Shown in pieces: positions 1 through 40,456 of a stretch of 64,000 nt of DNA (the stretch's first letter is position 1; each line of letters opens with the position of its first letter). Source of the DNA: Bilabrum cf. latius (lineage: Eukaryota); the NCBI GenBank assembly GCA_965178125.1, contig OZ237767.1, forward strand, positions 310,001 through 374,000, written 5' to 3'. A program made the position numbers and the translations under genes. The notes under the pieces are model-generated. The model was not told the DNA's origin and made no database searches. It worked only from the letters and a program-made list of their open reading frames with translations.

Positions 1-1
1 A

Positions 2-1510
2 TAGCCTTTTACAGTAAAAGTTTATGAATGGGCTGAACCTACTGAAGTTATGAACAGTGAAGAAACCTTATCCACAATCTCACCCGTTGGACGCCCTGAC
101 ACTGTTGGTGATTATCGTGAAGTAAGTGATACCCTTAAAAATCCTTTAGCTTGGGGTTAGGATGTTGGATATAGTGCCGGTGATAGCTTTAGTTATCGTG
201 GAGCATATGGGAATGCTTTTACGACTGTAAGTGCTGATTTCGTTGCGGGTAATAGAGACCAAATTGATTGGACTATTGATTTTCAAGAAGCTATACCACT
301 AAAAGGAGCAGATGTTGATGTGAATGCTAAGTATTTTACCGGTGTAAGAAGCCTTCAAGTTGATTTAGATTATCACGTAAATGCTATTCAAAGACTGTGT
401 AAGGCTAGTCTTACAAAAGATAACGGAGATATTAATAAAATAACGGCTTAGTCAATTATAGGAGAAACAAATACGACCCTTCTTGTTGATGAAGTTGAAT
501 TTTAGAGTGGATACGCCCCCCCGACTCGTTGTATGTATAATATGCCTACAATTAAATTTTAGTCTTAGGCTCCTATCCCTGTAGCTAAATCCGCGACTGA
601 AAATTCTTTAACTTCTTTTGATTATCAATTATCCCGTGAGAATGGTATCCCTAGTGCTATTATGGTATGTGCCCGCCTTGTTGGTTGTGATGATAACCCT
701 AACTGGGCTAATAGAACTTTACCAATTAGAAGAATAGGTTTCTCACTCAATGGAAGTGCTGAGGAATTAGGGGCTGTAGATAATCCACACGAATTATATA
801 GAATTAGTAGAAAGAACGGATATGCTCTTCCTCCTTCATCCTTTTATGGTTCATCAATTGATGGAAGTGATGGAAACCGCGGTACTGGTTGCTATATGAT
901 TTTAAAACCTTCAGATGTTGCTACACTTGCTGGTGTTCAATCTAATGTAAATACTGGATTTAATCTTAAAGTTAATCTTCAGTGCTTCAACCCTTATAAT
1001 AAATATGCGGATGGTGCGAATGAGGATAAATACGAGATAAAAGTATGGATGTTTTATGATAATGTTCTTGTGAATGATAACGGTGTCTATACTGAGGCTG
1101 GTGCCCTTATTGAGCCTTCCAAAGTGCTTTCTGAACTTGCTAAACGTGGTGATGCTGAAAGTGGTTCTAAAGGTTTCTAGCCTGTATTTGAGGATTTAGA
1201 TAATTATGCTAATGTTATGGGTGGAAAAGGTCGTTTCTGGTCTAAGATTGGACGAGCCTTTAAACACGGATGGAACAAGGTTAAAGATTGGGCAAAAAGT
1301 GATTAGGCTAAAAACCTAGCTAAACAAATTAGGAATATAGGACCACTCAAAAGTCTAACAGGAAACAATACCGCTCTTGGCAAAGCGGCGGCACATTATG
1401 GATATGGAAATAGTGGAGGAGAATTGAATAAGCTTGGTGGAAAACTTACGATGCGTGGTGGCTAGGCTATGCGTGGAGAAGATCTCGAGGCCCTTTTAAG
1501 CACATCTTAA
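2..1510 (+). CDS. Major capsid protein, virophage type (5' end outside window)
   Basis: Frame is open from 2 to TAA at 1508-1510 when TAG is read through (>500 aa). Beta-rich body, then a C-terminal MGG-KGRFWSKIGRAFKHGWNKVKDW amphipathic, Gly-rich tail like the protease-cleaved tails of Sputnik/mavirus MCPs. Confidence 0.8.
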
Positions 1511-1511
1511 A

Positions 1512-1529
1512 CGTTTAAAATGACTTAAA
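1512..1529 (+). promoter_or_regulatory. Viral upstream motif CGTTTAAAATGACTTAAA
   Basis: Ends 29 nt before ATG 1558; the same motif recurs at matching spacing before several other viral genes. Confidence 0.7.
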
Positions 1530-1557
1530 TATATATTAACTAACTAATATATATCAA

Positions 1558-1848
1558 ATGGAAAAGTTAAATAAAATTATTGAGAATCTACCGCCTACAC
1601 ACGATGTCTATATCCAGACAGAAATTGATGGAGTTTTGACCGTAATTTTTACAAATAGTGATTAGGTAAAAGAAATCACCAATCAATTAAAAAAAGACAG
1701 TAGAGAGGAGCTATTATATCTCAAATATTCAACCTATAAATGTATTATATAGACGAGGAATAAGTATAGAGATGATGACATTTTACTTCATTATTTGGCT
1801 GTTTGTCTATTAGAAAAGAAACCCATTCAATTACATAAGGCAAGATAA
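1558..1848 (+). CDS. Hypothetical viral protein (96 aa, 2 in-frame TAG)
   Basis: ATG follows the conserved motif; ends TAA; followed by an AT hairpin at 1859-1883. Confidence 0.7.
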
Positions 1849-1900
1849 TCATTTTATTATTTATTTATACATATTAAATAAATATATGACCTGTGAATGA

Positions 1901-2012
1901 TACTTTCCGAAGTTGGTTCACACTTTCCGAAGTTGGTTCACACTTTTCAAAGTAGGTTCACACTTTCCGAAGTTGGTTCATACTTTTCAAAGTAGGTTCA
2001 TACTTTCCAAAG
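1901..2012. repeat. Tandem array of ~5.6 x 20-bp units (YACTTTYCRAAGTWGGTTCA)
   Basis: Units start at 1901, 1921, 1941, 1961, 1981 and 2001. Two variants alternate, each with an internal dyad ACTTT-nn-RAAGT. Confidence 0.95.
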
Positions 2013-2114
2013 AACTATTTAACCGGTCTAATTAACTAATATTTTAATAATATTAATTATTATAATCATCTATATCTATAGTGTCTATTTTTAAGCCCCT
2101 TTTTTATAATAAAA

Positions 2115-2134
2115 CGCGTTTAAAATGACTTAAA
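2115..2134 (+). promoter_or_regulatory. Viral upstream motif CGCGTTTAAAATGACTTAAA
   Basis: Ends 30 nt before ATG 2164; an identical 20-mer lies on the minus strand at 3612-3631. Confidence 0.7.
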
Positions 2135-2163
2135 GATTATATTATATAGATATTATATAGAGA

Positions 2164-2715
2164 ATGTGTAAAAAGTGTATTGAACAAATATAGGAACATA
2201 CCGGTAATATAAAATGGATGGACATTTAGAAGAAATTAATTCATATTGGTTCAACCGTTATTCAAGGTGATAAATTGGGTAATTGTATTTGTGGGCACGA
2301 GATACGAACCGAGCACGAAATAGAGCATACCCCTAGTGGATATGTTTTTAAAGTGGGTTCTAGTTGTATAAAGTAGATGATAAAGGATAAAAAAAATCAA
2401 ATTCGTAAAAAATGTTTATATTAGTGGTGTGGAATATGTAAAAAGGATGTCGCAAGAGACCGATATAATAAGCACTGTGAAGGAATAAGACATATTGAGT
2501 TAGAAAAGAAATAGAAAAAGTTAGAGGAAAAAAAGAGGAATGAAAAAAGATGTGATGTGTGTCTTTGTAAAATGGCTAGAGGTAATTGGAGGACAACCTG
2601 TAAGTCTTGTTATACGATTACAAAATATGGAAAAAAGGCGTGTAAAAAATGCGGAGTGTCTAGAATTAAAGATATGAAATATTCAATTTGTTATAAATGT
2701 CATATTGGTAAATAA
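2164..2715 (+). CDS. Cys-rich multi-zinc-finger viral protein (183 aa)
   Basis: Open with TAG=Gln, ends TAA. Motifs: CICGHEI...VGSSCI, CGIC...HCEGIRH (C2H2) and two further CxxC...CxxC pairs. Confidence 0.8.
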
Positions 2716-3037
2716 TAATTAGATATTAATGATAAAATTAATATTTAACATATTGATGATGGGAGTTAGAAGGGGCTATATTACAACCTTCTAAAGTGAT
2801 AGAACTTTTGGGCTAGAAATACGTTATCAATCAAATCATCTTCATAAAACTAATCCATCCACGTTTTGCTAAATAATACATATACTAATACGCAATTTGT
2901 GGATATAGCCATCGTATGGATTTTATAATAGAGATAACCATATATATTTTAATATTCTAGCCCTTTTATTAGATGGTCAAGGTGTTCAATTATTAATAAA
3001 GATATCATATTTAATATTAGTATAAATATTAAATTAT

Positions 3038-3583
3038 TTAGAAATCTTTTAATGCTTCTTGAAGTTGCTCTCTAAAGGCTTCTTCATCATCATCTTCATC
3101 ATCTGGTTTCTCAACATTTCTATTATTATCACGTTTTTGTTTCTTCTTATTCCTCTTCTTAGTCTTTTTCTTGGGTCTTCTTGGTTCTTCTTCTTCTTCT
3201 GGTTCCTCTACTTCCTCGGGTATAAATTGACCGTATGACAAATTAATATATTTGATGGCTTTGTCCTTCTTTTTAATTGTCATTATGGGGTCTTTACTCT
3301 CAAAATTTCCTGTATAATAAATCGGGGGCTCACTAGAAAACATATAAATGTATGGAACAAATGGATTTTTGGCACTGTCGGTCTTCATATCAGGGGTTAG
3401 ATACAAACCATTTAATTCGTCTTCATCCACTAGTTCAAATTTATCTTCTACGGTATTATTAAAAAATATCCCTTTAAAAGTTTTAAAGAAGAATTGATTA
3501 ATATATTTCTTGGCTTTCTTTACGGCTCCCTCTTCTAAAAGTTCCATTAATTCGCTTGGTTCATAACTCTAAAATTTTGACAT
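3038..3583 (-). CDS. Hypothetical viral protein with acidic/basic low-complexity C-terminus (181 aa)
   Basis: ORF 3038..3547 extends through one TAG to ATG 3583, which is 29 nt from the conserved motif; ends TAA. Confidence 0.8.
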
Positions 3584-3610
3584 TCTATATATATTATAAT
3601 AAAATAAAAT

Positions 3611-3646
3611 CTTTAAGTCATTTTAAACGCGTCTATTTGGCTTAAA
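3611..3646. promoter_or_regulatory. Back-to-back viral promoter motifs (TGACTTAAA minus, TGGCTTAAA plus)
   Basis: Divergent motifs end 29 and 30 nt from ATG 3583 (minus) and ATG 3676 (plus). Confidence 0.7.
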
Positions 3647-3675
3647 AATAAAATATCTATAGTATATATATAAAA

Positions 3676-4020
3676 ATGGTTAAATTAAGTGATATTCAAA
3701 TCGTTAGAACTCAACTTGTTAAAAACAATAAGCCCGTATATAATTTTGTGTTCCCTCTTCGTGAAAATGATAATGGATATAATGATTTAGAAATGAAGAC
3801 TTTATTAAAAAAATATATCTAGAGGTTATTAAAACAAAAGCCCCATTTAAAGAATTATGATGCGTATGTTAGCTCTCTCTACCCCATAGGCTGGCGAACT
3901 TCGTCACCATTTAAATTAAAGGATGATGTAATGTTATTCAGTCCTTCTTCTCGTTATACCTTCTTAAGTGATGAGCAAGTGAAGAGATTTATATTAATCC
4001 TCACTGCTCCGAAACAATAA
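3676..4020 (+). CDS. Hypothetical viral protein upstream of pPolB (114 aa; terminal-protein candidate)
   Basis: One in-frame TAG, ends TAA, has its own upstream motif; contains YVSSLYPIGWRTS. Function is inference only. Confidence 0.7.
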
Positions 4021-4098
4021 TTACATTTTATAATTTAAACTTTATAATATGTGTTTAAAATGGCTTAAAAATATATTAAATATAATATACTATAGGAA

Positions 4099-5598
4099 AT
4101 GATAAATTACGAAAATGTGTTAAATCAATTAAATATATGCTTTGGTAAAAAGTATGATAACCCCATTCAATCCGTAAAGTATCTAGAAAAGGTATTTAAC
4201 GGTAAGCCCATAACTACAAAGAACCTTTATAAACTTGTTTCAGGTTTAAAAATGGATATAGAGATTAGAGAGAAAGACGATATAAAGGTCTATTATCTAA
4301 GTAGGAAAAAAGAGAGTTTTAAAAGGGTTTGTTTAGAATATAAAGATGGTTCATTTAAAGCCGTCTAGAGGATGAAACCTTTATTTGTGCGGTGCCATAA
4401 ATCTATGGTTGTTAAATTAACCGATAAAGCCGAAATAATTGAAAAAGATAAATATAGAGTTGAGAGCCTGACCGATTATCATTCAAAGAAATATTATCTT
4501 CATTATACCATTCACGAATGCCCAGAGGATGAAGATATCAAAGAATGGAGTTTAAGGTTGAGTATAGCAAGTGATGAATTACACGATGAGAACCCATCAT
4601 TAGATGTAATGAAATATGGAATCAGACAAACAGCCCTTCATTTCTTTACAATGTTTAATATGATGATAGATAGCCCACCAGATATAACCCCAGAGGAAGC
4701 GGTATTTATTGAAGGTTCAACGCGTGGCGGGATTCAATATCACAAGAAGGGACAATATGAGGAGTTTATCACCTACGATATAAATAGTCATTACCCCGCC
4801 ATTATGTCATCTAATTCACTACTACCATATGGAAATCCTATTTATAAAACAATTGATAATAAATAGATAAATAATAAAAACGAAATAGGGATTTATAAAT
4901 GTAAGGTGAGCCAAGGGAAATGCGACCCGAATATCTTTCAAATGATGAAGGTATTTGAAAATGAATTTACTTATTATGTCTTTACAGATATGAATATGTT
5001 TGTTAAATATGGTTGTGAGATAGAGATGTCAAGCGACGAATTTAATTTTATGACCTATGATAAATTTATCAAAAGTGAAACACTTTTTAAATCCTATGTC
5101 TCAATGTTCTACAAATTAAAAAGCAAATCATATCTAGCAAAAGAAATATTAAATTCATTATGGGGTAAATTATGTAGTTCCTCTAAAAAGACAATTACAT
5201 CAAAAGACGATAAAAAAATAAATATAGATAAATTTGATATTGACCGTGTAGAAATGGATAATGACGGAGAATTTATTTATCATTTAAAACATAAAGTACC
5301 CTTTAAATATAGCTGGGGAAAATTGAAACCTTTTATTCTGGCATATGGAAGACAACGATTGATGAAGAAAGTGAATAAGAACAACGCTAAACATATTATA
5401 CGAATTCACACCGACAGTATCACATTTAACAAAAGATTAAATTTTAAAGTAGGTAAAGAATTAGGTGAATATAAAAAAGAATAGATAAATGAAGAAGGAT
5501 AGAAATTAATTATCCACGGATAGAATGATTTAATGGTCGTAAATGAAAAAGAAGAAATTATATCAAGGAAAGGAAAAAAAGGCGGTTTAATGCTTTGA
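4099..5598 (+). CDS. Protein-primed family B DNA polymerase (499 aa)
   Basis: Three track ORFs join through TAGs into one frame ending TGA. Motifs: TRGG, YDINSHYP (A), KEILNSLWGKL (B), ILAYGR, IHTDSI (C), LGEYKKE. Long insertions between A-B and B-C match TPR1/TPR2 of protein-primed enzymes. Confidence 0.92.
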
Positions 5599-5625
5599 AT
5601 TAAATATTTATTAATTATATAATAT

Positions 5626-5784
5626 ATGATTAATATTATTAGTAATATCTTTGTTTAGTATGCTATTAAGAAGGCATTAAAGAAGGTAAAAAATAAATTA
5701 ATGAAGAATCCAAATAATAAAAGACTCTATGAAGAATATAGAAAAAAAACGGCTCACGCTATTAAAAAATTATCATTTTATTAA
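5626..5784 (+). CDS. Small Lys-rich viral protein (52 aa)
   Basis: ATG after a TATA-rich spacer, one TAG, TAA stop; fills the gap between pPolB and the next gene. Confidence 0.45.
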
Positions 5785-5792
5785 TTATACAA

Positions 5793-6215
5793 ATGAATGA
5801 TAATATACCTAGTTATATTAATAATCCTAAAATTTACAAAAAAGCAATCCAAGAAGTAAATAGAACGTATAAAAAACCATCAGCTTATCGTTCATTAGCC
5901 TATCTAAAAAAATATAAACAACTAGGGGGGACATATGATAAAATTAAATTAAATGAAGCATAGAAAAATTTAAGAAGGTGGAAATTAGAGGATTGGAAGA
6001 ATTAGAAGGGAGAAAAGGGATATTAGGAAAAAGGAGATATATATAGACCCACTAAAAGAATAAATAAAGAGACCCCTTTAACCTTTGGAGAATTAGACAC
6101 GGAAGAAATAGAGGAAGCAATGAAGGAAAAATTTAATAACGGACACGTGAAATCATTTAGACCTAAACCAGTTTTTAATTTATATAAATCAACTAAATCA
6201 AATAAAAATATATGA
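5793..6215 (+). CDS. DUF5872-like conserved giant-virus/virophage protein (140 aa; probably frameshifted fusion with next ORF)
   Basis: Pattern PSAYRS..Y..LGG.Y..LRRW..EDW..YRPTKR..TPLT..EL; 3 in-frame TAG; TGA stop overlaps ATG 6212. Confidence 0.7.
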
Positions 6216-6499
6216 TTAAAGTAGTTCAAGGTAATAATATTCTGTTTACTGTTCATTTTGGTGGAATTAAGAATGATGGTACCCCTTATATGGACTTTAT
6301 ACAATATTATAATAAAGATGGAGAGAAGGAAGCAAACCGTAAAAAGAAAAATTATATTAAAAGACATTCAATAAATGAAGACTTTAAAGACTATAAATCC
6401 CCCGCTTTTTGGTCTAGGTTTGTATTATGGAATGAACCAACATTAAAAGATAGCTTTATGGACGCCGTAGATAGAGCTAAAAAATTAATGAAAGTTTAA
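6212..6499 (+). CDS. Tlr6F-like (DUF5754-like) protein
   Basis: VHFG..PYMDF..R...YIKRH..SPAFWSRFVLW pattern typical of Tlr6F homologues in virophages, Polinton-like viruses and giant viruses. Confidence 0.75.
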   Translation: MIKVVQGNNILFTVHFGGIKNDGTPYMDFIQYYNKDGEKEANRKKKNYIKRHSINEDFKDYKSPAFWSRFVLWNEPTLKDSFMDAVDRAKKLMKV

Positions 6500-6552
6500 T
6501 ATTATAGGTTTGATATAAGTTTTAGTTTTTCTCTTATTTATATATACAAAAA

Positions 6553-7089
6553 ATGAGCTTAGCAAGATTATCGCAACCTAATGATATGTCTATTCAATGT
6601 AAGAATGTCGCAACTGGTAAAATTGATAGCACTGGTATTGACCTAAATGCTGTCCTAGACAGTAGTGGCAACCTACAAGGAAACCCTGGAATTCATTTTG
6701 ATTCACAACACGGTGTAGGATATTTTACCACTGGCAGTGCTTTACGATTTGGTGCTAATTCCGCATCTGCTGGTTTAGTTATGAAGTTTGATGAAGATGG
6801 ACACGAATGTGATATAACCGTAAAAGGTGAAGTAGTAGCCACCAATTCAATCAAAGCTAAAGGTAAAATGGAATGGTCAAATGGTGGTAGTGAAAAACAA
6901 ATAGCAGTAGCAGGGGTAACCGAAGATGACGAAATACATGTTACCACTACTAAACCAGCAAATGAGGTTGATACTGAATTCTCACACGCTACTTGTGGAA
7001 TTGGTGTTATCACCGTTCATTTAACCAATAATTGTGTATCAAATTCTTTTGAATGTAATTGGATGGTTCTTCCCGGTGAAAGTTTATAA
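6553..7089 (+). CDS. Putative virion fibre/minor structural protein (178 aa)
   Basis: Intact ORF, Gly/Ser/Thr-rich and beta-strand-like; N-terminus MSLARLSQPNDMSIQC. Lacks the GRCTTAAA motif. Function is inferred. Confidence 0.55.
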   Translation: MSLARLSQPNDMSIQCKNVATGKIDSTGIDLNAVLDSSGNLQGNPGIHFDSQHGVGYFTTGSALRFGANSASAGLVMKFDEDGHECDITVKGEVVATNSIKAKGKMEWSNGGSEKQIAVAGVTEDDEIHVTTTKPANEVDTEFSHATCGIGVITVHLTNNCVSNSFECNWMVLPGESL

Positions 7090-7145
7090 ATATTTTTTAT
7101 ACTTTTTAACCTTTTTATTTATAATAAATAAATAAATAGATAAAT

Positions 7146-7448
7146 TTAAATTGATATCTCCGGTGGTTTAATCCCGCTATTAAGCAAGGTTTGATTAAGT
7201 TTTTTGATATATTCCTCTAGTATATCCTTTTTTGGTTCTTTGAGATTTTTTTGGTGTTTCTTCGTTCGTTCGTGTCTCGTTCTGTCCTTCCTTCTATAAT
7301 AACAATCACACACATCGCATTTAACTTTTTCATTTCCTCTAGCTAAATATTTTTTATTCCATTTGTCTTTGTTTGTTTTGTAATATTCCTACATATAATT
7401 AATTTTTGGTTGCTCCTCTGTATTGCTTGAACTCTAAATATCGCTCAT
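7146..7448 (-). CDS. C2H2 zinc-finger viral protein (100 aa)
   Basis: VKCDVCDCYYRRKDRTRHERTKKH; 2 in-frame TAG; TAA stop; upstream motif variant at 7476-7494. Confidence 0.8.
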
Positions 7449-7506
7449 CACTATATATTATATAAATATATAATGTTTAAGTTATTTTAAACACATAAAA
7501 AAGGTA

Positions 7507-7770
7507 TTAAATATTCCTTTTAGACTCTCTATATTTTTCTCTTCTTCTTTGATTAATCATTTCTCTATTATTCAAATAGTATTCTTTAGCCTTCTAAAGG
7601 TTCTTTTCCTTTATTTTTTCTTTATGCTTTTCATAATACCGCCTATTTTTTTCTGTCGTTGTCAGTCTTCCCTTTTTACTTTCACCTATATATTTATACT
7701 TCTCTAATTGTTCCATTGATATATTCAACTCTTTTAATACAGTATCGTTTATATCTATTATGTATTTCAT
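7507..7770 (-). CDS. Small charged helical viral protein (87 aa)
   Basis: YYEKHKEKI / YYLNNREMI repeats; one TAG; TAA stop; GGCTTAAA at 7810-7817. Confidence 0.65.
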
Positions 7771-7861
7771 TTTTGTCTATATACTATATATTTTATTTAT
7801 AAGATATTTTTTAAGCCTCAATGTATTATATAAATTAAATTATATAAATTAATCAACACAA

Positions 7862-10621
7862 TCACTAATCTAATCTTAAATTTTCAGTTTTATAAAGATT
7901 AATATTATCATCGTTATACTAAAATTCATACACTCTTTCAAATAAGTCTTTCTTTTTCGTAAAACTAACCTTTAACTATCTTACATCCTCTTTTTTCGCC
8001 TTACCCCATTTTGAACTTATACATCCAAACAGCTATTTATATAATTTAATTATTGCTCCGTGTAATTCTATATCCGTCTCAATAGGTTTTTTCATTCTAG
8101 CTCCAACCGTTTCAACATATCTTTTACCTATTTTTCTATATTTATTAGATATTTCATTTTTACGTTTATAATTGATTTCAAACTTACTTAATCCTAAAAT
8201 CTATAACATATCAAATAATAAAACTATCTTATTTTTATCACTTTTAAATTTTTCATCCTCAAAATCACGCCTATCTTTCAATTCAGATAAAATAGTAAAT
8301 TTATTTTTTCTTTTAAAGCTAGCATAATTAAAATAATTCTACAAACTATAATTATCAATGAGAAACTCTTTTAACTATTCATCAATTGATTCTTTAGGAA
8401 TTCCTAATATATTTATTCTTCTCTAGATGTGTTCATTCTCATACTCAAATTTTTCAATCTTTTCATTCTTGAGTTCCTTAATGATTGATGCTATCTATCC
8501 ACCTTTAATTTTTGTTGGTAATTGTCTATCAACCATAACATTAAATCCCCTATTTCTTAATATTTTCTATAAATGAATATATTTATTTGTGTTATACGTA
8601 TCAACTTTATAATTATATAATCGTTTTAGTGGAATATATATTTTAGTGCTCGCATTATACATTAATTTAAATAATCTATCATCATCATCATCTTTTAAAA
8701 TATCATACTCTAATCCATTTTCTTTTAGGCATTTTTGTTCGTATTGTTCTAATGTTCTATAAATCTTACAAGAAGCATTAATTTCCATCTATAATTTACT
8801 ACAAGCATCACTCATTGATTCATATTCAGGATATGTAGATTGAACGCATTCAAAAAAGATATTTATATAAGATGGGTTTCTACATCTTGCTAGCTACTGT
8901 ATCATTTGAGTAGGTAATATAGTTTCACCTTTGAAAAGACCATAAACTGGTCTCTCCATAGTGCTATCTAGCCCGTAAATCACCTTCGGGCTAAAGATTA
9001 TCTTATCATATTTATCTAAATCAATTTCTTCACTAGGTAATAAATCGCTTGTAATCAATTTTATATTTTCTATTCCATCTTTACATAACATTTTATGAAA
9101 TGTATCCGCATTCTTCTTACTATCACAAGAGAGGATAAATTTATCTTCCGCTTTTAATTTATCATAAAACTCCTACTAATCTTTATCAAAATATACATCT
9201 ACACCATTGAAATGTTTATAAATATTCTTATAATATCTGTATTTAACGCCTGTACTCTTCACAAACTTCATCGCAACCTAGCTAATATCAGCATCTACAG
9301 CAATAAACTATTTACAAGTTCTAATCATTTTCTGTATCATAAACAGAACTAACACGCGGTTATTATTCATTGTTGAAGAACTTAAAATGTGTTCTATAAT
9401 ACTATTAAATTCATCTAAGAATACTACATATTTTGAAAAATCATAATTTACAATCTAAGGTAAGCTTTCGGGTGTAATAATAAGGCTCTAACCAAAATCA
9501 AATTTTTTATTCTAGTAAAATTCACATTCTACCCCTTCATCTTTAAAACTTCTATACTATTCACTCCCTAAACAAACCCTTGAAACTATAGAGATAAAAG
9601 GCGTCTTTATCTATTGTATATACTTCTTGAATGCTGTGGTCTTTCCAGTTCCTGTATCACTTTTTATAATGTAATTATGGTCATACTTAAAAAATCTTTC
9701 AGGTTTGTTAATATCATCTAATTTGGGTTTATTAATTTCAATGAATCCATCTACATTTTCTATATGAGGTCTATAAAAACATTTACCATAATATTTATCT
9801 TTTAAATAAAATTTTACACTGTTATCATCATTTTTGATAATCATATTAACAGTATTAAATGTTTTTAGTCTATCAAAATGATGAATTGAATTCCAAACTT
9901 TCATATTATTCACGTAATTATATTTTTTCCCGTTTTTACTCCAATCATTCCATTCTTTTTTAAATCCTAAATATTTACTTGCTAGTGTAGCTTTATACCA
10001 ATCATTAAAATCATCTAAATATTTATTATTCAATCTATTCAATATAATTATCCAATCTTTACTTTCTAAATTGAAATTTAATAAACAATTATTCATATCA
10101 GAGCAATTAACCTCGTTCTTTGATAATGCTCCTTTTATATTAGATTTCTTAGATGATTTAATAATGTAATCACAATAATAATTATATAATTCTTCGGGAC
10201 ACTTCTTTATTTTAGAATCGTTAATAACTTCATATTTATCATAATTTATTGAGCTGGGAGGAATAGGAACATATGCCCCGTCATTTCTTATTTTGATTTG
10301 AACATCCTTATTCTTGGTAGTAAGAATATTCTAATTGTATTCAAAATATAAATGATACTGCCCGTTTGCTGTCTTAATTGTTCTTGTATTGAATCTCTTT
10401 ATATAATCCTTTCCAAATGCTTCAATAAATGAATGCTCTTTAGACCATTTCTATACCTCCAACTCAAATATTGTTATATTATTCTATTCTCCTGTTATCA
10501 TTCCTATATTCTAATTTTTAAACTTCTAAGGGATAACTTTATTTACATATTTCCAATTCTTGACATCGGGGACATCCTGATTATGTTTAAGTGGAAAAGT
10601 TATTAACTATTTTGATGACAT
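7862..10621 (-). CDS. PrimPol + PriCT-2 + SF2 (UL9/origin-binding-type) helicase (919 aa)
   Basis: Single frame with ~27 TAG (manual count), ends TGA. PrimPol motifs NIGMITG, TANGQYHLYF, RNDGAYVPIPPS. PriCT-2-like DW..W..WS..KY..W. Helicase motifs SDTGTGKTT, IVSR, LDEF, DAD, SPKVIYGLD, Q(TAG)LARCR. Confidence 0.9.
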
Positions 10622-10691
10622 ACTATATATTTTATAATATATATAATAATTTTATTTTTAAGCCACGATATAATTATTAAAAACGAAAATT

Positions 10692-11453
10692 TTAATTATA
10701 AATTTCCCTGAGTCTATTATATTCCTTTTTGTAATCACAGGACAAATAGACTTTATAATTCCAAAATTCAGCTGTATGTATATCGTCATTATCGTTAATA
10801 CTAAAATTTCTTTTGATTTTTGATATTATAATTTGAATTTTTCTAGAACTAAAACGATTTCTAAGCGATTCAACGTCTGGTAAGTGTGAATCACCAAATT
10901 TAATTATATTCCCATTTACTATAACCTAAAAACGATAATCTCCATCATCCAACCTCTTTAAATCTCCTATTAGTTCTAATTTGCTCTCTGTTTCTTCCTC
11001 ATTATCACTATCCGCCACAATCTAGTCCTGTTCAGTATTTACACTTTGACTATCATCACTATCATCTTCAACACCTTCGTGAATTATTGCGGTCTATCTA
11101 ATTAATTCTGGCGGTTGTAAATCATCTACATCATTATAAATTTTATTATTCTGTGGTTTATAGTCATTAAATTTATCTAGAATGTATGTTTGCTTAATTT
11201 CAACCTGATCGTTGTTGTTGTGTTGTGTCTTCTGTTTCTCTTCTTTCTTGGGCTTTTTCACGGATTTTTTCTCTTTAATATCACTAACTATATTTTTATT
11301 AATTAATTTAGAGGTGGAAAACTTACCACCTAAATCTACATACGTAGTAATGGTCTCTAGAATTTTCTGCGTGCTATCTGTAATATGGTCTGTAGCCTTA
11401 TGAATCTGCTTCATTAGGACGGGATTTTCAATGACATAATTATTAAAGTTCAT
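10692..11453 (-). CDS. Hypothetical viral protein, possible degenerate Tlr6F-like C-terminal domain (253 aa)
   Basis: ORF 11094..11453 continues through TAGs to TAA at 10692-10694; C-terminal YRFQVIVNGNIIKFG...HTAEFWNY. Confidence 0.75.
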
Positions 11454-11479
11454 ATCTATAATACTAAGTTATAATTTTT

Positions 11480-12529
11480 GAGTTTTAAAAAAACGCTTAG
11501 AGGTGGGGGGTCATGTGGGGGTTATCCCTAGCCTATAGGCTAGGGTTATGAAGGGGGGTATGTGATGTATAGGCATAGATTAATACTTTAAAACATATAC
11601 ACCCTTAATAAAGGCTTAAACTTTAATATTAAATCCTGTAGGTTAGACCCTCATATTTCCTAAGAAATGCTGGACTCCAATATCCAGATTCAGGTTCATT
11701 TTGACGATGACGAGTGTAGCGAGTTGCTGTTGCGCGTTTGTTCCATTTGTGAAGGTATAAGCGAGGATAAGGGGGTATAATGAAGGTAGTTTAGAAGGTT
11801 GAATAATGGAGTCCCATAAAGTGATGGAATTTTTGGCTAGAAAATGGCTAGAGTCCCATAACACCTTCACAAAATTGAGAGATCCACGTAATGAGAATTA
11901 ATACTGAACTTGAATATTCACATTCATTTTTATTTATACATATACTTTTAAAGACCAACATTTCCTAAGATATACTGAACTTCAACTTCAATATTCATTT
12001 TCATTTTTTTTTTAATATTTATACATTCATATCATATATTTATTATTTATCAATATATTCTTTTAAATTAAATACTATTATGACCCATTATTATCATATT
12101 TAATATTCTATTTAGCCCTAAATTACCATTTCAAGGGGTACCCCTTAGATAATCATTCTAAATATATAATTTTATTGCTTTACCTTCATTAATGATTGAA
12201 CTTGAATTAATTTTATAAATTTACATTGAACTTTAGAAGGTCAAATAATCACCCTTCTAAAATGAAGGGACTATTTTATACTAAAACACCAAAAGTCCCA
12301 TTTGACCTTCTAACAAAAGCCCCGGTACAAGAAATGTTATAATATACTATATAAATAGCATTTTTTGTACTATATCTTTTATAGAGATTACCTTGACTTT
12401 TGGAGCGACTAGCGACAAAAGGAGTGAAACGGACTGAAGAGCTTTAGCTCTGATGGACTGGAACTATTGATGATGTTAATCATCCTTAACCGAAGGGAAT
12501 AAATTTATTTATTACCGTAGCGGGGGGGG
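11480..12529. repeat. Non-coding viral terminal region (probable terminal inverted repeat)
   Basis: No convincing ORF. Perfect palindromes at 11526-11545 and 12133-12146; inverted 14-mers at 12233-12246 / 12300-12313; G8 run at the GC boundary. The partner repeat cannot be seen in this window. Confidence 0.55.
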
Positions 12530-12547
12530 TTGCCAGGCCTGCCGGCG

Positions 12548-12591
12548 AGAAATACAGAAATACAGAAATAAATACAGAAATACAGAAATAC
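12548..12591 (-). repeat. Octamer tandem tail (AGAAATAC)n at the retrotransposon 3' end
   Basis: About 5 copies visible; two more at 12801-12815. Confidence 0.9.
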
Positions 12592-13024
12592 ATTGTTGGG
12601 TTAAGTTACCGAACCCGCCACAGATGCACCATATCTCAGGTGATCACCTGCAGCGGTAGGAGCCCTCATAAGAGGACTACAAGACCCCCGACCCTTTCAG
12701 ACCAAAGGCCCCCCATGTACCGGCCCTGATGTTGGGACCTCCCTTTGTCGCCTTCAAGCCCTCCTTCGCAGCAGTCCCGGAGCCTTTATTTCGGATATCC
12801 GAAATACAGAAATACATTGTTGGGTAAAGATTCCACAAGCACCCAGATGCACCGTTGCCCCCGAAGGAGTTCGAGTGATCACCTGAATCCAGAGGAGTCC
12901 TCAAACAAGGACTACAAGACCCCCGACCCTTTCAGGCCAAAGGCCCCCCAATCTCAGCCTACACCGCCGAGTCCCCTTTATTCGCCATCAATGTGGTCCC
13001 CCACAAGCCCTCAGCCTGATGCCT

Positions 13025-15500
13025 TCACAGGGAGAAAGCATACAGGTGCGGAGCATGTGCCCGGCACAAAGCGCGGTCCAGTCCCACATCAGGGTCCCCT
13101 GCCGAGACCCACCATTTCCTCCTCCATGACCGTCTCTGCGTCTCACGGTCCTTCAGAGAGGCTAGCATGCACGCGCTCATGCCTTTGGCCCATTGCCTCT
13201 CTATGTCCCTTAGCAAGCCGTGGGGCTTAAACATCCGTCGCTGTAGCCGAGCGTTCGCATTGGTTGCCGCTATCAGCTCTTGCGTGGCCGTGGCGGCAAG
13301 AGCAGCCGCCGCATCGCCTCGCATCCACTGCCTGCACGTCAGCTACTCCTGCTAGCGCAGCTGGTTCCTGATCACCTGCACCACTCGGTTGGCCAGCTCC
13401 TTGACAGCTGTACGTTCCGATGACCGCGCAATCGTACGCTCTATCCGAGTGAGTGCGTCTTCGACGATTGGCTTGGCCCTGCTGGTGCGCTCCAGCTTCT
13501 CGTCCCAAGGGTCCTGAGCGAGAGCTGTCTTCGCCCATGCTTTCCGGAGAGAGGCAGGGGACCTCCCTCTATTCTGATCCGCATCATCGGGTTGCCACGG
13601 TCTCGTTCCGGCATGATGGTCATGCTCGGCCCGCTCCATCTGCTCTACCGCGGTGCCCATCACTTGAAGGTTGGGCGTGCCCTGTTGCGGGTTATTGTCC
13701 AGCTCGGATGCGCAGAATTCGTCTTCCTTGGTGGCCGTATTCCTGCACCACCGCTGCTGTTGGCATGGCTCCTGGTCCGAAGGCATACCGTCCCTTCGTT
13801 GCGTACCGGTTAAGCATGACCACTCCGAGCGCAGCTCTCTCCCGGTCCCAATCCGACAGTGCCGGATCGTGCGAGCATCCCAGGCTCAGGCTTGTGAACG
13901 ATCGGTCAGCAGCTCCGGATTTGGATTTCCTCCACTTTGTGACTTTTTTTGCAGTCTCCTGGCATCCCATCCAGTCCTTCGCGTCATCGATCCGTTGGGT
14001 CCACCCTGCCATCTTGATCCTGAATCCCAGTGCCAGCGCGGCCCCGAGTGGGCCTGTCTGTACTGGTGGTCCCTGCAGGAATCGGCCCTGGTGGATGAAC
14101 CTGGCCGCAACATCAAGGCCCTTCTTCGAGGGACACTCGATCAGGTCCAGCAGGCCCATAGCAACACGCCCTGCTGCCGATGCCGTCAGCAGCTCAGTGT
14201 CCATCGCGAGGTTTGGCACGTATCGACCGCCCATGGTGAAGGGCCTTACCTGTGTCGATCCGCTGACAATCATCCAGCGCGTATCCAGCAGGAATTTGTC
14301 CAGCATCTTGAGGACTTCCAGGTTCAGTTCCATCCCATAGAAAACTTGGGAACCATATCCTAATCCTGACAAGGTGTCCCATCCTGTTGCACATGCCGCT
14401 GCCTCTGCTCCGTAGAATGCACTCGTGATTGCTCCTGCATGGAGCAGCTGGGCGTGCAGGGAGACCGCCCAGTTGCCGTTCACCGCCGCTCGTGTGATGT
14501 CCCTGGCCGCCCGGTACGCCATCGCAATCCTCCTGCGTACGTGGGGTGCCATATCAATTACCCAGATGTCTCTCGCCTGCGTCAGCCCAGCTACTTCATC
14601 TGGGCTGATCCGTACCGGTTGGGTCGAAATGAGTAGACCGAGGTACGGGTAGGATGAGGCAAGTGGGATGGTCCACTCCCCATCCGTCTCTCCCGCGTCC
14701 GCTGCTCTGCATGCGACGCCCTCTGGCATGTCCCCAGGAATTGAGTCCCGAGCGTAGCCAAAGGCCATGATCGCTGTCTTGGTTCCCTGGCCCGATGCTG
14801 TCAGGGGCTTGATTCCCAGCTACATGCCCGCAAGTGCAAACAGGCTCTTGACTAGCTTCATGACCGCCACTGCTTCGTTCCAGTTCGACGTCAGTGCCAC
14901 GTAGTCGTCTGCGTACCCGACTTGTCCACATTCAACGTATCGTCCGGTGTCGGTCACGATCCTTTGATGGTGCCCGTGCTGGAGCCTCTCTTTCCGCAGC
15001 GTTTCCAGGAGAACCCCCATCAGTACCAGGAAGATGGTGGGAGACAGAATCTCGCCCTAGGGGGTGCCCGCCGTCTTCTGCACTCTGGTAGAGACCCTCC
15101 TGGTGAGTGGGTCTCGAACGCGGATGGCCACCTGCATGCGGGCCATGAGAAAGCGGACCGTCTGGCGTCCCCATCCTTGCTCCGTCATGATGGCCTCGAT
15201 GATGTTCCACTTGCAACTGTCAAATGCCCCTTTGATGTCAAAGAATACCAGAAAACCTCCAGCACCCCTTCGTTGGGTAATCCATTCCATCACCGCTGAG
15301 TAGGCCTGCTGGCAGTTCTTGCCGATGCGAAATCCGGCCTAATCCTGGCCGAAGAGTCCGTGGTTTTCGCAGTACCACATGACCTTCTGGTTTGCGATGG
15401 TGCTCACGACCTTCGAGAGGGCCGAGGTCCAGCATATTGGCCTGAATTCGTCGACTCCTGTGACTCCTGTGCCCTGCTTGCGCTTGGAGACCGGCGAGGC
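13025..15500 (-). pseudogene. Non-LTR reverse transcriptase ORF, truncated and probably frameshifted
   Basis: Motifs FRPI, Q(TAG)AGFR, FFDIKGAFDS, GTPQ(TAG)GEILSP, YADD, YPYLG. The RT frame stops at TAA 13692-13694; a different frame continues to TGA 13025-13027. Confidence 0.85.
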
Positions 15501-27800: not shown

Positions 27801-28738
27801 TGGGGATGCGGATCCTCTCGGGTCTGACTGTGATTGCCTTCCTAGTGCACCTGACCCTGACTGAGGCATCCTTCGGGCTGTTGTCCTGCACCACCCTGGA
27901 GCCAAATGTTGACCTGGCCGAGGGCGACGATTAGATGGGCTCGCTGGCAGTGAGTCCGGCAGGGCATAACGAGTGCCCGGAAGGCAAAGAGAACAGGCGG
28001 CTGGTGCTGGACCTGGATGTGTGCTGCCACAATCCCAGCGCGCTGCAGATCATGTACGGCGTGGGCGTTCCAGCCATCCTGGTGTTTGCAGTGGGCATCC
28101 CGCTGCTGGCTGGCCTGAGGCTGTGGTGGGTCAGCGATAGGCTACGAGCCCCTGATGTGATCGCAACGATGGGTTTCCTGATGGCAGGTTTCAATGACCA
28201 CGCGTACTATTGGGAAGTTGTGATCATGCTGAGGAAGCTAGCCGTGGTGGCCATCACTGTCCTGGTGGAGCCAATGGGCGTGCGCGTTCAGATATACTCT
28301 GCAATTGCAGTGATTTTTGCCGCTGCTGTGCTGCACTCGCTAAATCAGCCGTATGAGGCCACGGCACTCAACACGCTGGAACTAGTTGCGCTGGTGGGTG
28401 CATTTTTGACCTTCGAGGCTGGTCTCTTCCTGCATGACGAGAATTCAACCGATATTGTAAAGACGCTTGCAACATTGGCTGTATTTGCTGCCAATTTAGG
28501 CGTGCTGCTGTGGTGTCTGTGGGTTCTGCGGCACGAGATCCTGGGCAAAGCGTGGGAGGTGTGCTCCTTCGTTGGTTCGCTCGTATTCGACGAAGTGTAG
28601 CCTGGCGGAATGGCAGCTGGCACAGTGCTGGTGTTGTCCGACTGGGAGCAGGAAAAAATCCGAAAAGCGAGGTCCAGTCGGGCTAGAAAGGGAGCTAGCA
28701 GTGGTGGTCAGCAGGAAAGGAAAGGGGAGGAAGTTTGA
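15832..28738 (+). CDS. Giant cell-surface protein: FG-GAP (integrin-alpha propeller) repeats, IPT/TIG domains, Cys-rich segment, multi-pass TM C-terminus (~4,250 aa)
   Basis: Sixteen track ORFs share one frame and are joined only by TAG; ends TGA 28736-28738. DLDGDG..D.AVGA...GAVW repeats; CAEGYDGLLCARC; KILFSHVQV..WP..SLDC; YYWEVVIMLRK; QPY..LN. Probable intron 15852-15957; the start is uncertain. Confidence 0.88.
18146..19440 (+). repeat. Six near-identical 216-bp FG-GAP units in an ABABAB (432-bp) higher-order array
   Basis: Units alternate GQLDDNDFFG and G(A/S)LSNADMFG; antisense ORFs in the track recur at a 432-bp period (18209, 18641, 19073). Confidence 0.95.
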
Positions 28739-39490: not shown

Positions 39491-40456
39491 TCACTCCTCC
39501 TTGATGGCCATGGCCTTGTCGGCGGGCTTGGCGAGGTCGACCGAGAACTTGGAGATGGGGCTCTCCTGCATGCGGGTCTCCATCCACAGGTCGGGGGACA
39601 GGTAGGTGTACGACTTGCGGAGGGCGAAGAAGCATGCCTTGATGAAGTTGCCCATGGTGCGCGTGTGGCCGCGGGAAGACGTGTAGCAGTCCTGCACGCC
39701 GGCGAGGGCGAGCATCTTCTTGGTGGCGGGGGCGGCGACCAGCCCGGTACCACGAGGGGCGGGGATCAGGCGCACGCGCACGGAGCCGCAGGCGCCCTGC
39801 AGCTTCTGGGGGACGGTGTGGGGGAGTCCGCGGCGGGAGCCCCAGTACCCGCGGCGCACGGGCACGAGCGCCAGCTTAGCGGCGGTCAGGGCACCGCGGA
39901 TGGCGATGGCCACCTCGGTGGAGACCTTCACGCCAAGGCCGATGTGGCCGTCGTGGTCACCCACGGCCACAAAGGCCTTGAAACGGGTGCGCTGACCGGC
40001 GGTGGTCTGCTTCTGCACGGGCACGACCTTCATCACCTCGTCGGTCAGGGAACCCTCCTCTGCGACAGCCAAAGACGAACAAAATACAGCCACGCGACAA
40101 ATGAGTACATTTTTATTATTTTGGCAAGTTTGCGCAAAAGCTGAAGCAGATGACTCACCCTTGAAGAAGTAATCGATGATCTCGGCCTCCTTGACGGGCA
40201 GGGAGTGCAGGTAGATCTCCTCGAGGCTCTTGATCTTGCCCATCTTAATGAGGCGGCCCAGCTTAGTTACTGGTACCCATTCCCCAGGGCCATCCGAGCC
40301 ACGACCGCGCCCGCGTCCACGCCCACGGCCGCGTCCGCGACCGCGTCCGCGACCGCGTCCGAACCCGCCCTGGTCCTCACCCTCAGCAGGGGCCGGCGCC
40401 ACCTCGGCGTCGTTACGAGCGGCTCCAGTTGCTACGATTCCACCTTCTTCAGCCAT
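39491..40456 (-). CDS. RPS2: 40S ribosomal protein S2 (uS5)
   Basis: RG-repeat N-terminus, [46 protein letters not shown]. In-frame 99-nt intron 40060-40158; TGA stop. Confidence 0.98.

What the first reader, a model, noticed from the sequence alone, without database searches (positions are those of the whole stretch)
1..12529. Endogenous virophage written in the host's non-standard UAG=Gln code
Seen: almost all viral ORFs are interrupted only by TAG and end in TAA/TGA. The helicase has ~27 TAGs, one at the invariant Gln of SF2 motif VI (8894-8896). Known: virophages depend on a giant virus for transcription and on host ribosomes, and Cafeteria carries AT-rich endogenous mavirus-like elements. 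Inference: this virus is adapted to, and translationally confined to, UAG=Gln hosts. Its helper giant virus should be code-compatible too, and standard-code gene callers would shred such genomes. The near-intact ORFs, promoters and terminus suggest it may be reactivatable. I know of no description of this combination but cannot check the literature.
Basis: partly seen in the sequence, partly recalled or inferred. Interest (0 to 1): 0.95.

Follow-up and report, generated by a model that had tools for sequence, protein, structure and literature searches.

The report
Virophage genome reading TAG as glutamine
The first 12.5 kb of the window is the right-hand part of a virophage (a small virus that parasitises giant viruses) lying next to genes of a GC-rich protist, and both the virus and the host use the stop codon TAG to encode glutamine, which ties this virus to hosts with that rare genetic code.

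Summary
Window 1-12,515 is 26-36% GC and the rest is 50-67% GC. Read with TAG as sense, it holds 13 tightly packed ORFs with 59 in-frame TAG and no in-frame TAA or TGA. All 13 end in TAA or TGA.

The capsid gene, cut by the window start, is of virophage type. A profile built on it matches the mavirus capsid protein (E=1e-128) and Sputnik V20 (5e-48). The best fold matches are mavirus, Sputnik and lake virophages.

The 919-aa primase-helicase has 27 TAG. In 120 homologues these columns are 5.6-fold enriched in Gln. One is codon 8894-8896, where 119 of 120 have Gln.

The host genes (FG-GAP/TIG protein, Cav-type channel, others) also carry in-frame TAG, at conserved Gln sites in three informative cases. 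Among 104 environmental relatives of the helicase, none is TAG-recoded.

Not shown: the junction at about 12.52 kb was not checked with reads. The left half (penton, ATPase, protease, integrase, inverted repeat) is outside the window. Helper-virus dependence and reactivation are inference.

There is a precedent: endogenous Polinton-like viruses of Streblomastix use the host's TAA/TAG=Gln code. I found no report of a virophage with a reassigned stop codon.

The parts
2..1510 (+). Major capsid protein gene, virophage type. It is cut at its 5' end by the window start; about 115-130 N-terminal residues are missing. 9 in-frame TAG, TAA stop.
   Evidence: Profile A1 matches 6g45 (mavirus MCP, E=1.2e-128) and 3j26 (Sputnik V20, E=4.7e-48). 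The single sequence matches 6g45 at E=3.2e-6. Pfam MCP_V20_C is weak at E=0.0019. The missing N-terminus shows.
1513..1529 (+). Promoter-like 17-mer GTTTAAAATGACTTAAA upstream of ORF 1558. Further copies lie at 2118-2134(+), 3612-3628(-), 4053-4069(+) and 7476-7492(-).
   Evidence: 5 copies with at most 1 mismatch, each 29-46 nt upstream of an ATG in the ORF's orientation. 0.1 matches expected by chance.
1558..1848 (+). ORF of 96 aa, no family match, 2 TAG.
1902..2012 (.). Intergenic tandem repeat, 20-nt unit x 5.6.
2164..2715 (+). Cys-rich ORF of 183 aa (zinc-ribbon-like by eye), 5 TAG, no family match.
3038..3583 (-). ORF of 181 aa with an acidic/basic tail, 1 TAG.
3676..4020 (+). ORF of 114 aa, 1 TAG.
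4099..5598 (+). ORF of 499 aa, possibly the polymerase part of a family B (protein-primed type) DNA polymerase. 5 TAG, TGA stop.
   Evidence: The call rests on motifs read by eye in the translation (D-I-N-S-H-Y-P, K-x-x-x-N-S-x-W-G, H-T-D-S) against motifs recalled from memory. Pfam and PDB sequence searches gave nothing. One local tblastn hit to a helicase-bearing metagenome locus: L092, 26% over 294 aa, E=2e-13. Unconfirmed.
5793..6215 (+). DUF5872-family ORF of 140 aa, 3 TAG.
   Evidence: Pfam PF19197, E=1.1e-23.
6212..6499 (+). ORF of 95 aa, no TAG. Weak relatives lie in other helicase-bearing viral loci.
   Evidence: L019, L020, L027, L101; E=5e-7 to 3e-5.
6553..7089 (+). ORF of 178 aa, no TAG, no family match.
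7146..7448 (-). ORF of 100 aa, 2 TAG.
7507..7770 (-). ORF of 87 aa, 1 TAG.
7862..10621 (-). Primase-helicase of 919 aa: Prim-Pol, PriCT_2 and an SF2-like (ResIII) helicase. 27 TAG, TGA stop.
   Evidence: Pfam Prim-Pol E=2.8e-8, PriCT_2 1.9e-5, ResIII 8e-4. phrog_4913 'replication' E=9e-25. 232 full-length homologues. The closest are in metagenomic virophage contigs.
8894..8896 (-). TAG codon 576 of the helicase, at an invariant Gln of a motif VI-like Q-Q-x-x-R-C-R stretch.
   Evidence: Q in 119 of 120 homologues. Invariant in the top 10.
10692..11453 (-). ORF of 253 aa, 3 TAG, no family match.
11454..12515 (.). About 1.06 kb without ORFs of 60 aa or more at the right end of the AT-rich block. 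It holds degenerate 48-nt direct repeats and a 20-bp palindrome at 11526-11545. Possibly the terminal repeat region.
   Evidence: An inverted repeat cannot be tested without the left end.
12506..12545 (.). Junction: the AT-rich sequence ends and a short GC-rich stretch leads into an (AGAAATAC)n microsatellite.
12546..15380 (-). GC-rich, 5'-truncated retroelement fragment with a reverse transcriptase ORF (13692-15380). Its repeated 3' tail (12577-12715 and 12801-12950) abuts the virophage end. It also carries in-frame TAG.
   Evidence: RVT_1 E=8.7e-15. Repeats D4 and D10.
15908..28738 (+). Host gene of 4,276 aa (FG-GAP repeats, IPT/TIG) with 21 in-frame TAG. Context showing the host's use of TAG.

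Best explanation
Window 1 to about 12,515 is the right-hand part of a virophage genome. Its capsid is mavirus/Sputnik-type. Its replication module is a PrimPol-SF2 helicase plus a probable family B polymerase, as described for low-GC endogenous mavirus-like elements.

In this assembly it lies in a GC-rich eukaryotic chromosome, directly against a truncated retroelement. Its genes are written in a code where TAG means glutamine and TAA and TGA stop. This is the same code the flanking host genes use.

Shown here:
- the gene content
- the capsid family
- TAG at conserved Gln columns
- TAG use in host genes
- a conserved 17-nt motif 29-46 nt upstream of five genes, and a shorter motif upstream of others
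- the absence of such recoding in 104 environmental relatives of the helicase

Inferred:
- Host ribosomes decode viral UAG with a host tRNA-Gln(CUA) and a release factor that ignores UAG. Neither is in the window.
- The upstream motifs are promoters read by the transcription machinery of a helper giant virus, as for mavirus with CroV. That helper must itself be expressible in a UAG=Gln cell.
- With 59 in-frame TAG in 11 of 13 genes, the element cannot make its proteins in standard-code hosts.

TAG is used as often as CAA in the AT-rich virus (59 against 56, with 12 CAG). In the GC-rich host it is less common than CAA and far less than CAG (68, 110, 339). This is broadly what base composition predicts for a full synonym of CAA, and it points to long residence under this code.
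For: Capsid:
- 49 homologues.
- Of the 40 sequences in alignment A1 (the window's protein and 39 homologues), 38 hit Pfam MCP_V20_C and 11 hit Sputnik_MCP_1st.
- The profile matches mavirus MCP at E=1.2e-128 and Sputnik V20 at 4.7e-48. The single sequence matches mavirus MCP at 3.2e-6.
- The AF2 model has pLDDT 71. Its top five PDB matches are mavirus and Sputnik (E=2e-15 to 5e-14), against 2e-6 for the best giant-virus capsid.
- The top BFVD matches are Qinghai Lake, Sissi, Miers Valley virophages and mavirus.

Code in the virus:
- 59 in-frame TAG and 0 TAA or TGA in 3,347 codons.
- At the 27 helicase TAG columns, Q is the commonest residue pooled (450 of 2,846 residues, 5.56 times background). 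Column 355 has Q in 112 of 120, column 576 in 119 of 120, column 438 in 74 of 120.
- The MCP and the helicase end where their homologues end.

Code in the host:
- Long ORFs appear only if TAG is sense: 68 TAG in 9,715 codons and no in-frame TAA or TGA.
- In the FG-GAP repeats, TAG falls where sister repeats have Q. H-x-K-I-S-D/E has Q 8, K 1, TAG 1. G-G-F-x-G-x-L has Q 5, S 2, A 2, TAG 1.
- In the channel's pore loop, TAG aligns with Q of Cav1.1.

Relatives:
- The closest helicase relative with context (L026, 44% identity) lies on a virophage contig with penton, MCP, an ATPase-like gene and an rve integrase.
- Of 105 environmental helicase ORFs, none has more than 1 TAG inside the profile envelope, against 26 in the window. 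Seven environmental MCP ORFs have 0 TAG, against 9 in the window.

Same-sample presence: six runs hold 0.63-0.71 of the words of a 4-kb stretch centred on the junction. That is more than either side alone could give.
Against: - No read-level check of the junction.
- The junction lies against repeated retroelement tails, which is a classic place for misjoins.
- Other assemblies hold the same element on contigs of only 12.8 kb.
- Only one of the four virophage core genes is in the window. No integrase, inverted repeat or target-site duplication is visible.
- Some helicase TAG columns are conserved for other residues: column 57 has Y in 83 of 120 and column 901 has R in 102 of 120.
- The 9 MCP TAG sites fall in variable columns and say nothing.
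- The host's TAG=Gln rests on three informative sites. The other host TAG sites examined were uninformative.
- No tRNA of any kind is in the window.
- The Q residues in database proteins P0001, P0170, P0173 and P0174 come from a gene caller that itself read TAG as Q, so they are not independent evidence.
Confidence: 0.75

Rival explanations
1. The AT-rich block is a free (episomal or particle-borne) virophage of the same culture or host, joined to a host contig by misassembly at a repeat. On this reading the code sharing is real but the element is not endogenous.
For: The junction abuts a microsatellite and a twice-repeated retroelement tail. The same element occurs on separate contigs of 12,807 and 12,842 bp in other assemblies. 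No reads could be laid.
Against: The window is contiguous as given. Runs from at least two studies hold 0.63-0.71 of a junction-centred 4-kb stretch, so both sides occur in the same libraries. AT-rich virophage islands beside retrotransposons in GC-rich hosts are a documented natural arrangement in Cafeteria (PMC8547959, passages read).
Confidence: 0.2
2. It is a decayed viral fossil. The TAG codons are nonsense mutations or assembly errors in a dead element, not a reassigned codon.
For: Premature stops in endogenous viral elements are often reported and are often artefacts (PMC10120064, passages read). Near-identical copies in another assembly carry frameshifts.
Against: All 59 interruptions are TAG and none is TAA or TGA, although TAA is 2.4 times commoner than TAG in the region. 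TAG sits at invariant Gln columns. The host genes show the same pattern. The ORFs align end to end with homologues. The promoter-like motifs are conserved.
Confidence: 0.02
3. It is a Polinton-like virus or Maverick rather than a virophage.
For: It has a possible family B polymerase. No penton, ATPase or protease can be seen to type it. Adintovirus capsid proteins appear among the fold matches (rank 6).
Against: The best sequence, profile and fold matches of the capsid protein are all virophages. The closest helicase relatives lie on contigs with Sputnik-type penton and MCP.
Confidence: 0.03

Closest known systems
Endogenous mavirus-like elements (EMALEs) of Cafeteria burkhardae, low-GC types (PMC8547959, passages read)
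   Same: An AT-rich virophage island in a GC-rich protist genome. A mavirus-type capsid protein. A replication module of primase/helicase plus a family B polymerase. Type-specific upstream promoter motifs. Association with GC-rich retrotransposons. Partial copies at contig ends.
   Different: Cafeteria and its EMALEs are described with ordinary gene calling; no reassigned codon is mentioned in the passages I read. Here 11 of 13 genes need TAG=Gln. The retroelement here shows only a reverse transcriptase; no tyrosine recombinase was seen. Integrase, inverted repeat and target-site duplication were not seen.
Endogenous Polinton-like/Maverick-type viruses of Streblomastix strix that use the host's TAA/TAG=Gln code (PMC10120064, passages read)
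   Same: A small integrating dsDNA virus of a protist that shares the host's reassigned stop codon. The authors read this as a sign of long virus-host association.
   Different: That capsid belongs to the 'Metamonada' Polinton-like group, not to virophages. Both TAA and TAG are reassigned there. Here only TAG is sense and TAA is the main stop.
Mavirus and Sputnik virophages (PDB 6g45, 3j26)
   Same: A double jelly-roll capsid protein of the same family by profile and by fold.
   Different: Direct sequence similarity is low (mavirus E=3e-6 for the single sequence). The code differs. The other core genes are unseen.
TAG=Gln ('code 15') bacteriophages such as crAss-like phages (PMC9523058, abstract start seen in a search listing only)
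   Same: A virus genome with TAG read as glutamine, which standard gene callers shred.
   Different: Those phages differ in code from their bacterial hosts. Here virus and host agree, so no viral suppressor tRNA is needed, and none is in the window.
Eukaryotes with UAG=Gln and UAA kept as stop: Iotanema spirale (PMC5304391, abstract read); Hartmannula sinica and Trochilia petrani (PMC11687900, abstract read)
   Same: The same decoupled code variant as the host genes here.
   Different: The host here is not identified. It has about 60% GC, long genes and GT-AG introns. I made no attempt to name it.

Membership tests
Virophages (class Maveriviricetes / Lavidaviridae sensu lato) | Virophage-type double jelly-roll major capsid protein | tested here: met
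Virophages (class Maveriviricetes / Lavidaviridae sensu lato) | Penton (minor capsid) protein, FtsK/HerA-type packaging ATPase and cysteine protease | not testable with these tools
   None of the 12 other ORFs in 1-12.5 kb matches them. In relatives they lie upstream of the MCP (L026), which here is left of window position 1. No genome is held.
Virophages (class Maveriviricetes / Lavidaviridae sensu lato) | Replication dependent on a giant virus (Nucleocytoviricota) | not testable with these tools
   The only hint is a shared upstream motif. The motif is not recurrent in any IMG/VR contig.
Integrated provirophage (EMALE-like) | A composition island flanked by host DNA on both sides, with terminal inverted repeats and a target-site duplication | tested here: inconclusive
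   The right boundary is seen at about 12.52 kb. The left boundary is outside the window.
Integrated provirophage (EMALE-like) | An integrase (rve or tyrosine recombinase) | tested here: not met
   No integrase domain is found in any ORF of 1-12.5 kb. It may lie in the unseen left part, as in L026.
Genetic code with TAG=Gln and TAA/TGA stops (as NCBI table 15) | In-frame TAG at conserved Gln columns of homologues | tested here: met
   Virus: (5.56-fold Q enrichment; Q in 112, 119 and 74 of 120 at three columns). Host: three informative sites.
Genetic code with TAG=Gln and TAA/TGA stops (as NCBI table 15) | TAA and TGA absent in frame and used as terminators | tested here: met
   0 in-frame TAA or TGA in 3,347 viral and 9,715 host codons. 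Terminators are 9 TAA and 4 TGA in the virus, 2 TAA and 4 TGA in the host.
Genetic code with TAG=Gln and TAA/TGA stops (as NCBI table 15) | Suppressor tRNA-Gln(CUA) and an adapted eRF1 | not testable with these tools
   There is no tRNA in the 64-kb window and no Rfam match. The rest of the genome is not held.
Polinton-like viruses | Capsid protein closest to Polinton-like or Polinton capsids | tested here: not met
   The top sequence, profile and fold matches are virophages.

The most novel reading that the evidence does not exclude
This is the first recognised virophage lineage written in a reassigned-stop code (UAG=Gln, with UAA and UGA as stops), at compositional equilibrium with that code. 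On this reading it has co-evolved for a long time with a protist lineage using this rare code. It would also imply an undiscovered code-compatible giant virus in the same host. The three-partner system (host, giant virus, virophage) would be sealed off from standard-code hosts by translation alone. Relatives exist: a 97% variant, and a 66-74% helicase relative on another contig.
Probability: 0.5. Interest if true: 0.8.

Novelty: new variant of a known kind. Interest (0 to 1): 0.68.

Why it matters
Virophages use host ribosomes, so a host's code change should drag its viruses along. Here that is visible gene by gene, in a virus class where I found no such report.

- It gives a concrete handle for finding the giant viruses of hosts with reassigned stop codons: look for Nucleocytoviricota contigs or insertions with in-frame TAG in the same genome.
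- It shows that standard-code pipelines will miss or shred such elements. Standard-code reading breaks 11 of the 13 genes here.
- It offers a natural test of whether a code change acts as a barrier to virus host range.
- It adds a GC-rich, intron-bearing eukaryote to the very short list of organisms with UAG=Gln and UAA kept as a stop, if that host is not already described.

Tried and rejected
- No RNA holder was listed among the sequencing runs.
- No whole genome is held.
- Single-protein scans of IMG/VR with the MCP and the helicase found no relative.
- Alignments A1 and A2 were too divergent to seed scans.
- A metagenome scan with the close MCP alignment A4 found no relative.
- Database proteins with Q at the window's TAG sites first looked like direct proof. 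P0001 has Q at 4 of 5 sites, P0170 at 5 of 5, P0173 at 13 of 13 and P0174 at 6 of 6. They come from near-identical DNA with frameshifts, called with TAG read as Q, so I rejected them as independent evidence.
- The MCP TAG columns are variable and uninformative.
- Host TAG sites were uninformative in the Yju2-like protein, in the second half of the channel and in the two TAG-rich paralogues.
- Summed ORF length with TAG as sense is 2.49 times the standard value in the window, against 1.03-1.88 in 104 relatives. The same measure with TAA as sense is also high (3.28), because TAA is so common in AT-rich DNA. I therefore use it only in comparison with relatives.
- The 17-nt promoter motif occurs only once per contig in 75 IMG/VR contigs, which is compatible with chance and gives no lead to a helper virus.
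- The phage collection holds no virophage. The MCP had no match and the helicase had only distant phage primases.
- There are no tRNA or Rfam hits in the window.
- Earlier findings of this scan gave nothing.
- ORF 4099-5598 had no Pfam, PHROG or PDB sequence match.
- Literature: five searches found no paper describing a virophage with a reassigned stop codon. Supplementary tables of PMC10120064, PMC6905037 and PMC13524828 could bear on this and were not seen.
Full report
**What is in the sequence**

The window splits sharply by composition. Positions 1 to about 12,515 are 26-36% GC, and everything to the right is 50-67% GC. Under the standard code the AT-rich block holds only short ORFs. With TAG read as a sense codon it resolves into 13 ORFs of 87-919 aa that fill about 88% of positions 1-11,453.

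These ORFs contain 59 in-frame TAG in 3,347 codons. Eleven of the 13 have at least one. Nine end in TAA and four in TGA. TAA and TGA together make up 6.2% of all triplet positions in the block, and TAA is 2.4 times commoner than TAG. By my arithmetic from those counts, a 919-codon frame free of TAA and TGA has a probability of about 3e-26. That includes the count of 27 TAG in the helicase and the TAG at 8894-8896.

**What the genes are**

ORF 2-1510 is a major capsid protein whose first 115-130 residues lie left of the window. Alone it gives only a weak Pfam hit to the Sputnik V20 C-terminal domain (E=0.0019) and E=3.2e-6 to the mavirus capsid protein in the PDB.

An exhaustive search found 49 homologues. 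I aligned the window's protein with 39 of them (alignment A1).
- 38 of the 40 sequences in A1 match MCP_V20_C and 11 match Sputnik_MCP_1st.
- The profile matches mavirus MCP at E=1.2e-128 and Sputnik V20 at 4.7e-48.
- An AlphaFold model (pLDDT 71) finds mavirus and Sputnik capsids first in the PDB (E=2e-15 to 5e-14). Giant-virus capsids follow only at 2e-6.
- In BFVD the best matches are the Qinghai Lake, Sissi and Miers Valley virophages and mavirus.

ORF 7862-10621(-) is a Prim-Pol + PriCT_2 + SF2-like helicase with 232 full-length homologues. Its closest relative with genomic context is L026 (44% identity). L026 sits on a metagenomic contig that also encodes a Sputnik-type penton, a virophage MCP, an ATPase-like protein, an rve integrase with a chromodomain, and a GIY-YIG protein.

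ORF 5793-6215 belongs to DUF5872 (E=1e-23).

ORF 4099-5598 shows three motifs that look to me like family B polymerase motifs A, B and C. Those motifs are recalled from memory, and no search confirmed them. One local hit to a helicase-bearing locus, L092, is the only support. A primase/helicase together with a protein-primed PolB is the replication module described for low-GC endogenous mavirus-like elements of Cafeteria (PMC8547959, passages read). The remaining ORFs have no family.

**What TAG means**

I aligned the helicase with 120 homologues and masked its TAG codons. Gln is the commonest residue pooled over the 27 TAG columns, at 450 of 2,846 residues or 5.56 times its background frequency. 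The next strongest enrichment is Arg at 2.35 times.

Three columns are strongly conserved Gln:
- column 355 has Q in 112 of 120
- column 576 has Q in 119 of 120
- column 438 has Q in 74 of 120

Column 576 is window 8894-8896, in an invariant Q-Q-x-x-R-C-R stretch.

Results against: column 57 is Tyr in 83 of 120 and column 901 is Arg in 102 of 120. The nine MCP TAG sites are in variable columns.

Database proteins that carry Q at the window's TAG sites looked like direct proof at first. Their odd termini, however, are encoded in other frames of the window's own DNA. They therefore come from near-identical, frame-shifted contigs on which the gene caller itself read TAG as Q, and I do not count them.

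TAA and TGA are stops. Neither occurs in frame, and the MCP and the helicase end where their homologues end.

**The host**

The GC-rich part is eukaryotic nuclear DNA. It carries:
- a 4,276-aa FG-GAP/TIG protein
- a four-domain Cav/Nav-type channel interrupted by a 150-nt GT-AG intron (34246-34395)
- ribosomal protein uS5
- a Yju2/Saf4 splicing factor
- a purple acid phosphatase

Its long ORFs exist only if TAG is sense. They hold 68 TAG in 9,715 codons and no in-frame TAA or TGA.

Three TAG sites can be judged, and all point to Gln:
- In the FG-GAP repeats, H-x-K-I-S-D/E has Q in 8 sister repeats, K in 1 and TAG in 1.
- G-G-F-x-G-x-L has Q in 5, S in 2, A in 2 and TAG in 1.
- In the channel's domain II pore loop, TAG aligns with Q of Cav1.1.

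Other host TAG sites I looked at were uninformative. So the host's use of TAG as sense is firm, and its meaning as Gln is supported by few sites.

This variant, with UAG=Gln and UAA kept as a stop, is known from Iotanema spirale and two phyllopharyngean ciliates (PMC5304391 and PMC11687900, abstracts read). I did not try to name the host.

**Codon usage**

In the virus, TAG (59) is used as often as CAA (56) and far more than CAG (12). In the host the order is CAG 339, CAA 110, TAG 68. This broadly follows what base composition predicts if TAG is a plain synonym of CAA. I read it as long evolution of the virus under this code. This is an inference.

**Is the recoding special among relatives?**

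I fetched 24 IMG/VR loci and 80 metagenome loci that encode helicase relatives. Some contigs occur in both sets.

Of 105 helicase ORFs on these loci, none has more than one TAG inside the profile envelope, against 26 in the window. Seven MCP ORFs have none, against 9 in the window. Summed ORF length rises 2.49-fold in the window when TAG is read as sense. In the 104 loci the median rise is 1.08-fold and the largest is 1.88-fold.

Closer kin do exist in other assemblies:
- contigs of 12,807 and 12,842 bp, with MCP 100% and 97% identical
- an 11,891-bp contig with helicase pieces 66-74% identical

Their DNA could not be fetched.

**Regulatory signals**

GTTTAAAATGACTTAAA occurs five times with at most one mismatch. 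Each copy lies 29-46 nt upstream of an ATG and in that ORF's orientation, and 0.1 matches are expected by chance. GGCTTAAAAA occurs five times against 0.09 expected, three of them upstream of further ORFs, the helicase among them.

By analogy with mavirus and the EMALEs (PMC8547959), these are likely promoters for a helper virus's transcription machinery. That is inference. The 17-mer is not recurrent on any IMG/VR contig.

**The junction**

The AT-rich block ends at about 12,515 after about 1.06 kb without ORFs of 60 aa or more. A short GC-rich stretch follows, then an (AGAAATAC)n repeat. After that comes the twice-repeated 3' tail of a GC-rich, 5'-truncated retroelement whose reverse transcriptase ORF (13692-15380, minus strand) also carries in-frame TAG.

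This resembles the virophage-retrotransposon association in Cafeteria. It is also exactly where an assembler could misjoin.

The only independent hint is that six runs hold 0.63-0.71 of the words of a 4-kb stretch centred on the junction, which is more than one side alone could supply. I put integration at roughly 0.7-0.8.

**Novelty**

Five full-text searches found no virophage with a reassigned stop codon. Related precedents exist:
- Endogenous Polinton-like viruses of Streblomastix strix use the host's TAA/TAG=Gln table (PMC10120064, passages read).
- An ochre-suppressor tRNA in one metagenomic virophage clade was taken as a hint of reassignment in its hosts (PMC6905037, passage read).
- Alternative codes, code 15 among those tested, improved gene calling in some giant-virus MAGs (PMC13524828, passages read).

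The supplements of these papers were not available and might list such cases.

I therefore rate this as a new variant of a known kind. It is a virophage, not a Polinton-like virus, in the rarer TAG-only variant, with strong gene-level evidence.

Reactivation, the helper virus and completeness remain open.

Noticed in passing
window 34246-34395: A 150-nt GT-AG intron (GTGAGT...CAG) with an in-frame TGA interrupts the Cav/Nav-type channel gene between domain III S6 and the III-IV linker. ORFs 29764-34284 and 34288-37131 are one gene.
   Followed up: partly
window 39491-40456 (-): Ribosomal protein uS5 (S2) gene without a single TAG. It contains an extra in-frame stretch that looks like a retained intron. 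A highly expressed gene may avoid TAG.
   Followed up: no
window 45106-47838 and 48690-51983 (+): Two paralogous ORFs of unknown family with near-identical C-terminal parts. They are unusually rich in TAG (17 and 18) and carry long poly-Q/W tracts.
   Followed up: partly
window 1902-2012: A 20-nt tandem repeat (5.6 copies) in the intergenic space between ORF 1558 and the Cys-rich ORF of the virophage. It may be an origin or a binding array.
   Followed up: no
window 11526-11545: A perfect 20-bp palindrome (CCCTAGCCTATAGGCTAGGG) flanked by G-runs, just upstream of the last viral ORF and at the start of the non-coding terminal region.
   Followed up: no
window 12546-15380 (-): A 5'-truncated retroelement with an RVT_1 domain. 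Its 3' tail is present twice (12577-12715 and 12801-12950) and ends in an (AGAAATAC)n microsatellite that abuts the virophage. This recalls the retrotransposon-virophage association in Cafeteria.
   Followed up: partly
proteins P0170, P0173, P0174 (ENA contig of 12,807 bp); P0177, P0180 (contig of 11,891 bp): Another assembly holds a near-identical copy with frameshifts, on which an automatic gene caller read TAG as Gln. A further contig holds a 66-74% identical helicase in pieces of about 100 aa, possibly a second recoded relative.
   Followed up: partly
L026 1-14918: A metagenomic virophage contig with a Sputnik-type penton, an MCP, an ATPase-like gene, an rve integrase with a chromodomain, the closest helicase relative (44%) and a GIY-YIG gene. 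Its MCP is only distantly related to the window's, so the capsid and replication modules have been shuffled.
   Followed up: partly
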